Source: Escherichia phage phi92
Strand: one strand, 5' to 3'
Sequence record: NC_023693.1
Length of the DNA: 64,000 nt
How positions within the stretch are numbered: position 1 is the first letter of the stretch; the number at the start of each line of letters is the position of its first letter. Made by a program: the position numbers and the translations under genes. Below the pieces are notes generated by a model that saw only the letters and a list, made by a program, of their open reading frames with translations, was not told the DNA's origin and ran no database searches. Positions 21,398 to 21,828 of this stretch are shown here, in pieces.

Positions 21398-21737
21398 AGA
21401 TTATTTAAATGGAATCGCTAGAGAAAATTTCTCTTTTCGCTCATGGTTTTCTCCTTCAAACTCTAGCGGTTCTTTTTAAGTGATTTTTTAGTTTATTGGA
21501 GATTCACTGCCTTAGTGTGAGCTAAAATCGAGGAGCCATCGAACTGTCTGATTAATGATTTGCGAATCATTATAGTTTTAAGACCCCGGCAGTTTTATGG
21601 TGTACCTCTTGAATGTGAATGATGACGGGTTTATGGTTATCCTGGTCGTTAAATATCCAAAAACCTATGTTCCCCTTGAGGGCTTGCGCAGGCAATGCCA
21701 ATAAGTCCTGCATTTTCATTTAAAAGAGAATTTATAA
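21398..21737 (+). ncRNA. ORF-free structured spacer inside tRNA cluster (candidate small stable RNA or degraded tRNA copies)
   Basis: 340 nt without ORF of 60 aa or more; inverted repeat CGCTAGAG / CTCTAGCG; 13-nt duplicate TTTATTGGAGATT of the tRNA-Gln 5' junction. Confidence 0.3.
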
Positions 21738-21828
21738 TGGAAAAAGATGAACTTAAGTATGCTAAGCCTCTGGCTTCTGCTGCACGAAAAGCAGTTCGTC
21801 ACTTTGTGGTAACACTGAAGTAATTTAT

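What the first reader, a model, noticed from the sequence alone, without database searches (positions are those of the whole stretch)
21398..21828. ORF-free 430-bp spacer inside the tRNA cluster with a duplicated tRNA-Gln junction
The interval between tRNA-Gly and tRNA-Gln has no ORF of 60 codons or more. It contains an inverted repeat (CGCTAGAG ... CTCTAGCG), a hairpin-prone segment TGATTAATGATTTGCGAATCATTA, and a 13-nt exact duplicate (TTTATTGGAGATT) of the leader and first bases of tRNA-Gln. A 28-codon ORF at 21738-21824 ends right at the tRNA. This could hold a small stable RNA, remnants of tRNA rearrangement, or a processing signal.
Basis: seen in the sequence. Interest (0 to 1): 0.55.

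Follow-up and report, generated by a model that had tools for sequence, protein, structure and literature searches.

The report
Permuted T4 DNA patch beside hairpin
The long "empty" spacer in this phage's tRNA cluster is a conserved RNA hairpin followed by a 332-bp piece of DNA taken from an unrelated T4-like phage; the piece is in rotated order, as if it went in as a tiny DNA circle, so it is a clear footprint of gene traffic between unrelated phages and not a new RNA gene.

Summary
The window is a Justusliebigvirus (phi92-like coliphage). Most relatives have a 99-bp Gly–Gln spacer; this phage and 12 other distinct genomes have 431 bp.

The extra 332 bp lies between two copies of TTTATTGGAGATT (21492-21504 and 21824-21836). 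It matches Tequatrovirus RB27 with no mismatch, but in rotated order. RB27 reads rIII 3' end, 13-mer, rIII–30.9 intergenic region, ATGG. The window reads 13-mer, intergenic region, ATGG, rIII 3' end, 13-mer.

The simplest origin is a 332-bp circle, closed at a GG/AAAA microhomology. It would then have integrated by one crossover in the 13-nt match with the tRNA-Gln leader.

The 28-codon ORF is the gene 30.9 start codon fused in frame to RIII residues 56-82. A second sublineage carries another T4-like allele of the intergenic part with the same junctions, so exchange with T4-likes happened at least twice.

The native 94 nt is a separate element. It is a 26-27 bp hairpin conserved across Stephanstirmvirinae, with 10 covarying pairs and an invariant loop core. 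It has no Rfam match and is probably a processing (RNase III-type) signal.

There is no evidence for a tRNA remnant or a small-RNA gene in the insert.

The parts
21282..21311 (+). Sigma-70-like promoter match (TTGACA-18-TAGAGT with TG) upstream of tRNA-Gly. It would place the spacer inside a tRNA transcription unit.
   Evidence: This is a consensus match only.
21323..21397 (+). tRNA-Gly (UCC), left boundary of the spacer.
21397..21487 (+). Native conserved RNA hairpin. It has a 12-13 bp AU-rich basal stem and a 13-bp stem containing CGCTAGAG/CTCTAGCG, closing an apical region of about 47 nt.
   Evidence: RNAalifold on 9 distinct variants gives 27 pairs, 10 with compensatory changes. 97.9% of cells are paired, 0 of 500 shuffles reach that, and slid controls give 44-61%. 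The + strand folds at -28.7 kcal/mol (z = -4.98) against -16.1 (z = -1.6) for the minus strand. Model R1 scores 105 bits at 21396-21491 on the + strand, the only convincing hit in the window.
21440..21457 (+). Invariant apical core CTCATGGTTTTCTCCTTC, which contains an anti-Shine-Dalgarno-like CUCCUU.
   Evidence: Identical in all true homologues from four phage genera and from metagenomes. It occurs once in the window.
21492..21504 (+). Left copy of the 13-nt crossover sequence TTTATTGGAGATT. The empty-site sequence runs through it unbroken, and Tequatrovirus-derived DNA follows from 21505.
21505..21740 (+). Tequatrovirus rIII–30.9 intergenic region, through the ATGG that begins gene 30.9.
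   Evidence: 100% identical to RB27. 99-100% identical to hundreds of T4-like genomes. Absent from empty-site Justusliebigvirus genomes.
21549..21572 (+). It is part of the T4-derived DNA.
   Evidence: It lies in a 44-nt block that T4-like alleles IME339 and HY01 lack.
21737..21746 (+). Permutation (circle-closure) junction ATGG|AAAAAG. It joins the gene 30.9 start to rIII codon 56, with microhomology GG(C/A)AAAA.
   Evidence: The contiguous junction is found only in Justusliebigvirus genomes.
21741..21823 (+). Last 83 nt of Tequatrovirus rIII (codons 56-82 plus stop), placed downstream of the intergenic region, the reverse of the T4 order.
21737..21823 (+). Chimeric 28-codon ORF: the 30.9 ATG and its upstream region fused in frame to RIII residues 56-82.
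   Evidence: 27 of 27 residues identical to RB27 RIII residues 56-82. There is no evidence of expression.
21824..21836 (+). Right copy of TTTATTGGAGATT, which is the 5-nt tRNA-Gln leader plus the first 8 nt of tRNA-Gln.
21829..21903 (+). tRNA-Gln (UUG), intact, right boundary of the spacer.
   Evidence: and (60.1 bits).

Best explanation
The spacer is a composite of two unrelated things.

(1) 21397-21487 is a native structured RNA of Stephanstirmvirinae tRNA operons.
- It is a hairpin with about 26 bp of stem that starts right after the CCA of tRNA-Gly.
- Its apical sequence is invariant.
- By inference it is a double-strand-specific (RNase III-type) processing or recognition site in the polycistronic tRNA precursor.

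(2) 21505-21823, plus one of the two 13-mers, is 332 bp of Tequatrovirus (RB27-type T4-like) DNA in circularly permuted order.
- Most likely origin, step 1: in a cell co-infected by both phages, the T4-like segment 'rIII codon 56 ... stop – TTTATTGGAGATT – intergenic – ATGG' was closed into a 332-bp circle. The closure was illegitimate recombination at a GG(C/A)AAAA microhomology, or the circle popped out of a tandem duplication.
- Step 2: the circle integrated by a single Campbell-type crossover. The crossover lay in the 13-nt (15 of 16) chance identity between the sequence after the rIII stop codon and the leader plus 5' end of the Justusliebigvirus tRNA-Gln.
- That crossover duplicated the 13-mer and left tRNA-Gln and its leader intact.

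What is shown: the sequence identity, the permutation, the junctions and the distribution among genomes.
What is inferred: the circular intermediate and the co-infection.

The insert is most likely a tolerated passenger inside the tRNA transcription unit. It later exchanged its intergenic part with a second T4-like phage by homologous recombination.
For: Insertion state:
- Empty-site relatives have a 99-bp spacer with one 13-mer. The window has 332 bp more, flanked by two 13-mers.
- 15 of about 54 Justusliebigvirus records carry it; these are 13 distinct genomes from Denmark, Japan, the USA and elsewhere. Two IMG/VR contigs also carry it.

Donor:
- Hundreds of Tequatrovirus genomes are 99-100% identical.
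- Window 21492-21836 has 0 mismatches to the RB27 332-bp unit rotated at the 13-mer.
- The alignment shows the permuted order.

Junction:
- The ATGG|AAAAAG join is contiguous only in Justusliebigvirus genomes.
- It is absent from the metagenome and bacterial-genome collections.

The 13-mer is native to both partners:
- It sits after the rIII stop in T4-likes.
- It is the tRNA-Gln leader and 5' end in Stephanstirmvirinae outgroups.

Second exchange:
- The A150 group has the same three junctions.
- Its intergenic part is 100% identical to ECML-134, VEc74 and teqsoen.
- Its rIII part keeps RB27-type SNPs.

Precedent: mini-circles of 400-1400 bp form in T4-type infections and were proposed as vectors of horizontal transfer (PMC2839356).

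Hairpin. E. coli RNase III takes part in T4 tRNA maturation (PMC4810235).
Against: - No circle has been observed. The permuted product could also come from break repair with two template switches, or from a donor carrying a tandem duplication.
- The closure junction lies in coding sequence at a 2+4 nt microhomology, not at PeSL-type repeats.
- A 332-bp double-stranded circle is small and stiff.
- The two T4-like alleles in identical context could instead mean two independent captures. A donor haplotype one mismatch away exists (VEc74).
- For the hairpin, RNase III cleavage is untested. The invariant 18-nt loop core is not explained by a simple cleavage-site role.
- 'Passenger' is a default reading. 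The ORF is intact in most carriers.
Confidence: 0.7

Rival explanations
1. The DNA is the same foreign DNA, but no free circle was involved. A double-strand break next to the 13-mer in the Justusliebigvirus genome was repaired by copying T4-like DNA. The break could have come from a T4 nuclease that attacks cytosine-containing DNA, or from a homing endonuclease active in this cluster. Repair would run as follows: invasion at the 13-nt homology, synthesis through the intergenic region, a backward template switch at GG/AAAA into rIII, synthesis to the next 13-mer, then annealing to the other broken end. Alternatively the donor carried a 332-bp tandem duplication.
For: The final structure (R-b-a-R) is formally compatible. 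Both joins use microhomologies, which is typical of templated filler DNA. Relative VEcB has an HNH endonuclease gene between tRNA-Gln and tRNA-Pro, so breaks in this cluster are plausible.
Against: It needs more steps: two invasions or switches, plus a precise second-end capture with the 13-mer present on both ends of one break. No T4-like record with a tandem duplication was found; the junction appears in two separate pieces in every T4-like hit.
Confidence: 0.22
2. The insert is kept because it does something for the Justusliebigvirus. One option is that the chimeric ORF makes a 28-aa RIII C-terminal peptide that interferes with the lysis inhibition or the RIII–S1 interaction of a co-infecting T4-like phage. 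Another is that the T4 intergenic RNA or its 5'-UTR elements modulate expression of the tRNAs downstream.
For: The fusion is in frame and keeps the gene 30.9 translation start region. The ORF is intact in the window, muut, PD06, arall, AV123, phiWec187 and the UViG contig. The insert persists in isolates from several countries. RIII is a small protein that works through protein contacts (PMC9409239).
Against: About 39 of 54 close relatives lack the insert. The A150 group has a 1-nt deletion at codon 5 of the ORF. The in-frame fusion has a 1-in-3 chance expectation. There are too few substitutions to test selection. No promoter or terminator consensus lies inside the insert. The intergenic block is dispensable in T4-likes themselves.
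Confidence: 0.08
3. One reading: the whole spacer holds a small stable RNA gene or remnants of a tRNA-Gln duplication or rearrangement.
For: The 13-mer includes the first 8 nt of tRNA-Gln. The whole spacer folds somewhat better than shuffles (z = -2.0).
Against: Rfam and ARAGORN find nothing there. Beyond the 13-mer there is no similarity between the insert and tRNA-Gln: the local alignment score was matched or beaten by 642 of 1000 shuffles. The sequence is fully accounted for as Tequatrovirus rIII–30.9 DNA.
Confidence: 0.03
4. The conserved hairpin is not a processing site. It could instead be an intrinsic terminator or attenuator, a protein- or ribosome-binding decoy that uses its anti-Shine-Dalgarno-like loop, or a minus-strand translation start (the reverse complement of the loop reads GAAGGAGAAAACCATG).
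For: The stem is followed by U-rich sequence. The invariant loop core contains CUCCUU. The minus-strand reading is a textbook Shine-Dalgarno sequence plus ATG.
Against: The apical region of about 47 nt is far from terminator geometry, and the terminator scan finds nothing. Several tRNAs downstream must still be transcribed. G-U pairs and folding energy favour the + strand. The minus-strand ORF is 8-13 codons long and its length is not conserved (sequences).
Confidence: 0.2
5. Assembly or contamination artefact: T4-like reads were mis-joined into a Justusliebigvirus assembly.
For: T4-like phages are common contaminants of coliphage lysates.
Against: The same junctions occur in 13 distinct genome records from different laboratories and countries and in 2 metagenome-derived contigs. 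The copies carry lineage-specific SNPs and a second allele.
Confidence: 0.01

Closest known systems
PeSL mini-circles of T4-type phages (Arbiol et al. 2010, PMC2839356)
   Same: Small circular DNAs (about 400-1400 bp) are excised from T4-type genomes during infection and were proposed as vectors of horizontal transfer. The permuted 332-bp T4-like segment here is what an integrated circle of that kind would look like.
   Different: The closure here is at a 2+4 nt microhomology inside rIII and the gene 30.9 start, not between promoter-early stem-loop cassettes. No whole gene is carried. The recipient is an unrelated subfamily (Stephanstirmvirinae). The circle itself has not been observed.
Campbell-type integration of a circular molecule by a single crossover
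   Same: The product has one copy of the crossover sequence at each end, and the inserted DNA is circularly permuted relative to its linear source.
   Different: There is no integrase and no att site. The crossover sequence is a 13-nt chance identity, so this would be microhomology-driven illegitimate recombination.
Templated (filler) insertions and mosaic joints in phage genomes
   Same: Foreign DNA is joined at short microhomologies, giving a sharp transition from about 100% identity with one phage family to another.
   Different: The rotated order and the exact duplication of the 13-mer are more specific than an ordinary mosaic joint.
RNase III processing hairpins (rRNA operon stems, T7 early-region sites, T4 tRNA precursor)
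   Same: A stem of about 26 bp sits between stable RNAs in a polycistronic precursor. Covariation maintains it on the transcribed strand.
   Different: Cleavage is untested. The large apical region with an invariant 18-nt core has no counterpart known to me (my own knowledge). There is no Rfam family for it.
T4 RIII, the cytoplasmic lysis-inhibition accessory protein (82 aa)
   Same: The 28-codon ORF encodes RIII residues 56-82 exactly. Some records annotate it as 'lysis inhibition accessory protein'.
   Different: Only the C-terminal third is present, and it uses a borrowed start codon. It is not an rIII gene.

Membership tests
Tequatrovirus rIII–30.9 locus DNA | Near-identical nucleotide sequence over the whole segment. 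| tested here: met
   0 mismatches in 345 nt to the rotated RB27 unit. 647 records cover at least 80% of the segment.
Tequatrovirus rIII–30.9 locus DNA | Same order as the source locus (rIII 3' end, then intergenic region, then 30.9). | tested here: not met
   The order is rotated: intergenic region plus ATGG first, then the rIII 3' end.
PeSL mini-circle | Crossover between flanking promoter-early plus stem-loop cassettes. | tested here: not met
   The junction is ATGG|AAAAAG, between the gene 30.9 start and rIII codon 56. No sigma-70-type promoter match lies in 21505-21823.
PeSL mini-circle | Physical circular DNA in infected cells or virions. | not testable with these tools
   This needs inverse PCR or long-read sequencing of RB27-type infections.
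Transposable element (IS or MITE) with target-site duplication | Terminal inverted repeats, a transposase, and a duplication created from target sequence only. | tested here: not met
   No terminal inverted repeats at the insert ends. No ORF longer than 49 codons lies wholly inside the insert. The 13-mer already exists in the donor next to the same DNA.
Homing-endonuclease cassette | An endonuclease ORF within the insertion. | tested here: not met
   Only small ORFs are present, and the sequence is fully explained as rIII–30.9 DNA. An HNH gene exists only in relative VEcB, at another spacer.
tRNA or tRNA pseudogene | A match to the tRNA covariance model or a cloverleaf. | tested here: not met
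   No ARAGORN or Rfam hit in 21398-21828 at E<=10. No similarity to tRNA-Gln beyond the 13-mer.
Any Rfam RNA family | A covariance-model hit. | tested here: not met
   (E<=10, permissive filters) gives no hit inside the spacer.
RNase III-type processing hairpin | About 20 bp or more of double-stranded stem on the transcribed strand. | tested here: met
   26-27 pairs, 97.9% of cells paired, 10 covarying pairs, and G-U pairs that fit the + strand only.
RNase III-type processing hairpin | Position between stable RNAs in one precursor. | tested here: met
   In most variants it starts immediately or within about 10 nt after the CCA of the preceding tRNA and ends a few nt before the next tRNA; in Citrobacter Tr1 it follows two annotated CDSs. 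That the flanking tRNAs share one transcript is inferred from a promoter match.
RNase III-type processing hairpin | Staggered cleavage in the stem that depends on RNase III. | not testable with these tools
   This needs RNA end mapping in rnc+ and rnc- hosts.
Intrinsic terminator | A short GC-rich stem, a 3-8 nt loop and a U tract. | tested here: not met
   The terminator scan finds none in the spacer. The apical region is about 47 nt.
RIII protein | A full-length protein of about 82 aa. | tested here: not met
   Only residues 56-82 are encoded.

The most novel reading that the evidence does not exclude
T4-like phages may routinely shed sub-kilobase DNA circles that integrate by microhomology into unrelated co-infecting phages. 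The patch would then act as a portable homology 'landing pad' for repeated exchange, and two T4-like alleles are already seen in the same context. In addition, or instead, the chimeric RIII(56-82) peptide could be a weapon the Justusliebigvirus uses against lysis inhibition by co-infecting T4-like phages. Separately, the conserved hairpin with its invariant anti-Shine-Dalgarno-like loop could be a new class of phage regulatory RNA and not just a cleavage site.
Probability: 0.12. Interest if true: 0.7.

Novelty: new variant of a known kind. Interest (0 to 1): 0.5.

Why it matters
Mosaic phage genomes are usually explained by rare illegitimate recombination, but the intermediates are almost never visible. 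Here the donor allele, the recipient empty site, both crossover microhomologies and the rotated order are all preserved at single-base resolution. This is a rare natural case that fits the mini-circle route proposed for T4-type phages, and it crosses between unrelated phage groups.

It also warns annotators. The 'lysis inhibition accessory protein' called in some phi92-like genomes is only a 27-residue fragment.

The neighbouring hairpin is a well-supported RNA motif that is not in Rfam. It could be used to study how large phage tRNA operons are processed.

Tried and rejected
- Rfam at E<=10 over 19000-23500: only tRNAs, nothing in the spacer.
- The insert as a decayed tRNA-Gln copy: no similarity beyond the 13-mer, with alignment scores at shuffle level.
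- Transposon with target-site duplication: no terminal inverted repeats, and the 13-mer is native to the donor.
- Search for the circle junction elsewhere: IMG/VR gave only 2 Justusliebigvirus contigs, the metagenome contigs gave none, and the bacterial genomes gave none. So there is no evidence that the circle landed at other sites or that a tandem-duplicated donor exists.
- Promoter and terminator scan: nothing inside the insert. The T4 GenBank record held here carries no regulatory annotation for rIII–30.9. The literature search found no accessible description of that intergenic region.
- Pfam on RIII and on the 42-aa ORF: no family.
- Other copies of the hairpin in the window: none. The Ser–Lys spacer hairpin looks similar at its base but is not a hit.
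- An inner stem (GAAAAC/GUUUUC) inside the apical region was considered. It was not tested because A/U runs make the alignment register ambiguous.
- Other T4-like DNA in window 1-21300 and 21900-46800: none at megablast level. Positions 46801-64000 were not checked.
- Whether phi92 itself carries the insert was not resolved. It is not among the 15 full-length hits.

Full report
**What the window is.**
- The window carries a + strand cluster of 15 tRNA genes at 19625-22544.
- Over 21250-21950 it is 99-99.9% identical to Escherichia phages PD114, SD2, muut and PD06, which are Justusliebigvirus, Stephanstirmvirinae, phi92-like.
- The flagged interval is the 431-nt spacer between tRNA-Gly (21323-21397) and tRNA-Gln (21829-21903).

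**Checking the observation.**
- The inverted repeat is at 21416-21423 / 21461-21468. The AT-rich hairpin is at 21549-21572.
- The 13-mer TTTATTGGAGATT occurs exactly twice in 64 kb, at 21492-21504 and 21824-21836.
- A direct repeat of 13 nt or more arose in only 10 of 2000 shuffles of the interval.
- Rfam finds nothing in the spacer at E<=10.

**The spacer is polymorphic.**
- Most Justusliebigvirus genomes, for example PaulScherrer and VEcB, have a 99-bp Gly–Gln spacer with a single 13-mer.
- The window and 14 other records (13 distinct genomes) have 332 bp more, bounded by the two 13-mers.
- About 54 records carry the native part of the spacer at 95% identity or more. So roughly a quarter have the insert.

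**The insert is T4-like DNA.**
- The 319 bp between the repeats is 99-100% identical to hundreds of Tequatrovirus genomes, at the rIII–30.9 locus.
- Annotated loci of RB27 and RB51 were used for comparison.
- Alignment shows that the order is rotated.
- RB27 reads: ...CAGG|AAAAAGATG...GAAGTAA (rIII codons 56-82 and stop), then TTTATTGGAGATT, then 236 nt of intergenic sequence ending TTTATAATGG, then |CAAAAC... (gene 30.9).
- The window reads: TTTATTGGAGATT, then intergenic sequence ...TTTATAATGG, then |AAAAAGATG...GAAGTAA, then TTTATTGGAGATT, then tRNA-Gln.
- Rotating the 332-bp RB27 unit at the 13-mer reproduces window 21492-21836 with zero mismatches in 345 nt.
- The closure join (ATGG|AAAAAG, 21740/21741) lies at a GG(C/A)AAAA microhomology.
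- As a contiguous sequence this join exists only in Justusliebigvirus genomes and in two IMG/VR contigs with the same context.
- It is absent from the metagenome and bacterial-genome collections.

**How the insert most likely arose.**
- The arrangement R-b-a-R, from a source ordered a-R-b, is the signature of a circular molecule integrated by one crossover within R.
- R is native to both partners. It follows the rIII stop codon in T4-likes. It is also the leader plus first 8 nt of tRNA-Gln in Stephanstirmvirinae, including outgroups.
- By simple arithmetic, two genomes of about 150 kb are expected to share hundreds of 13-mers by chance (inference). There is no further similarity between the insert and tRNA-Gln. 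So R is a chance microhomology, not shared ancestry.
- Mini-circles of 400-1400 bp have been shown in T4-type infections and were proposed as vectors of horizontal transfer (PMC2839356).
- The circle here is inferred, not observed. Break repair with template switching, or a tandem-duplicated donor, could give the same product but needs more steps.

**Later history of the insert.**
- Among carriers, the window and PD06 have the exact RB27 allele.
- arall, AV123 and a UViG contig share two derived SNPs. phiWec187 has three of its own.
- Four records labelled 'Campylobacter phage' (A150 group) are really Justusliebigvirus. They keep all three junctions but carry a different intergenic allele.
- That allele is 100% identical to ECML-134, VEc74 and teqsoen.
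- Their rIII part keeps the two RB27-type SNPs, not those of ECML-134. No T4-like in the collection has that combined haplotype exactly; the best is VEc74 with one mismatch.
- This favours one integration followed by homologous replacement of the collinear part by a second T4-like phage. Independent capture is not excluded.
- Either way there were at least two exchanges with T4-likes.
- No other Tequatrovirus-like DNA is found in window 1-21300 or 21900-46800.

**What the insert carries.**
- The 28-codon ORF is the gene 30.9 ATG fused in frame to RIII residues 56-82, with 27 of 27 residues identical.
- Some records label it 'lysis inhibition accessory protein'. That overstates it.
- In T4-likes the intergenic region varies from 77 to about 400 nt through nested indels that are not multiples of three. 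It is restricted to Tequatrovirus and close kin.
- It therefore seems neither coding nor essential in T4-likes.
- The AT-rich hairpin lies in a block that some T4-like alleles lack.
- No promoter or terminator consensus lies inside the insert.
- The duplication preserves tRNA-Gln and its 5-nt leader.
- I therefore read the insert as a tolerated passenger. A function for the RIII fragment is possible but unsupported, and the A150 group has a frameshift in it.

**The native 94 nt is a different matter.**
- Homologues were gathered from Klebsiella phi1_175008, Citrobacter Tr1, phAPEC8, IMG/VR and metagenomes. They give nine distinct variants.
- RNAalifold predicts a 27-pair stem, and 10 of the pairs show compensatory changes.
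- On the named structure 97.9% of cells pair. No shuffle out of 500 reaches the observed pairing or covariation. Slid controls pair at only 44-61%.
- Frequent G-U pairs favour the tRNA strand. So does the energy: -28.7 kcal/mol (z = -5.0) against -16.1 (z = -1.6) for the opposite strand.
- The apical core CTCATGGTTTTCTCCTTC is invariant.
- A covariance model finds one copy in the window, at 105 bits.
- In most variants the hairpin starts at or within about 10 nt of the CCA of the preceding tRNA and ends just before the next tRNA. In Citrobacter Tr1 it follows two annotated CDSs instead.
- A stem of about 26 bp in such a position is what RNase III recognises (established knowledge). RNase III is reported to take part in T4 tRNA maturation (PMC4810235).
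- That role is inferred, and it does not explain the conserved loop.

**Verdict.**
- The 'tRNA rearrangement' and 'small RNA gene' readings fail for the insert.
- The 'processing signal' reading is plausible for the hairpin.
- The main result is a clean natural footprint of Tequatrovirus-to-Justusliebigvirus DNA transfer, with the geometry of a mini-circle integration. It is a new variant of known illegitimate recombination between phages.
- Alongside it sits a conserved tRNA-operon hairpin with no Rfam family.

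Noticed in passing
window 19874-19952 (+): Rfam's tRNA model scores 38.6 bits here, above the gathering score, but ARAGORN calls no gene and relatives annotate none. Two TTGACA promoter-like sites (19834, 19974) flank it inside an imperfect repeat (I1).
   Followed up: no
window 20508-20583 (+): ARAGORN reports 'tRNA-???' with a 2-nt anticodon. The Rfam alignment and relatives' annotation indicate tRNA-Lys (UUU).
   Followed up: partly
window 20373-20505 (+): The Ser–Lys spacer is another long hairpin (-37 kcal/mol, z = -3.6). It starts right after the CCA and has a basal stem similar to that of the Gly–Gln hairpin. 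It is not a hit of covariance model R1.
   Followed up: partly
L004 (phage VEcB) 1871-2230: An HNH endonuclease gene sits between tRNA-Gln and tRNA-Pro in a close relative, so the tRNA cluster is a hot spot for insertions.
   Followed up: no
L014 694-782; L015 about 693-780; L044-L052: Klebsiella, Citrobacter and metagenomic relatives carry an extra 89-nt tRNA between the hairpin and tRNA-Gln. It is annotated Glu, has the anticodon loop CUUUCAA and a long variable arm, and is missing in Justusliebigvirus.
   Followed up: no
L005, L008, L009, L010, L011 (Tequatrovirus rIII–30.9 intergenic region): This T4-like intergenic region varies from 77 nt (HY01) to about 400 nt (SF2-1) through nested blocks of 44, 126 and about 150 nt. 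The origin of the blocks is unknown.
   Followed up: partly
L007 (MG065639 and three sister records): Four UNVERIFIED 'Campylobacter phage' genomes (A150, A145, C3, A110a) are Justusliebigvirus coliphage genomes, so the stated host looks doubtful.
   Followed up: no
window 21695-21823; L002 1946-2074: RefSeq (PD06) and the SD2 record annotate the 42-codon ORF as 'lysis inhibition; accessory protein', although only RIII residues 56-82 are encoded.
   Followed up: yes
window 20846-20926 and 21903-21988: tRNA-Thr is about 96% identical to the tRNA-Thr of Felixounavirus phages. tRNA-Pro is 95-96% identical to that of T5-like phages. This suggests tRNA genes are exchanged among unrelated coliphages.
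   Followed up: no
window 21440-21457 (minus strand): The reverse complement of the invariant loop core reads GAAGGAGAAAACCATGAG, a textbook Shine-Dalgarno sequence plus ATG. It opens a tiny ORF of 8-13 codons whose length differs between phages.
   Followed up: partly
window 21837: Position 9 of tRNA-Gln, the base just after the right 13-mer, is G in the window but A in muut, A150, PaulScherrer and the UViG contig. A flanking SNP at 21480 (G/A) does not track presence of the insert, which hints at recombination or precise loss among Justusliebigvirus genomes.
   Followed up: no
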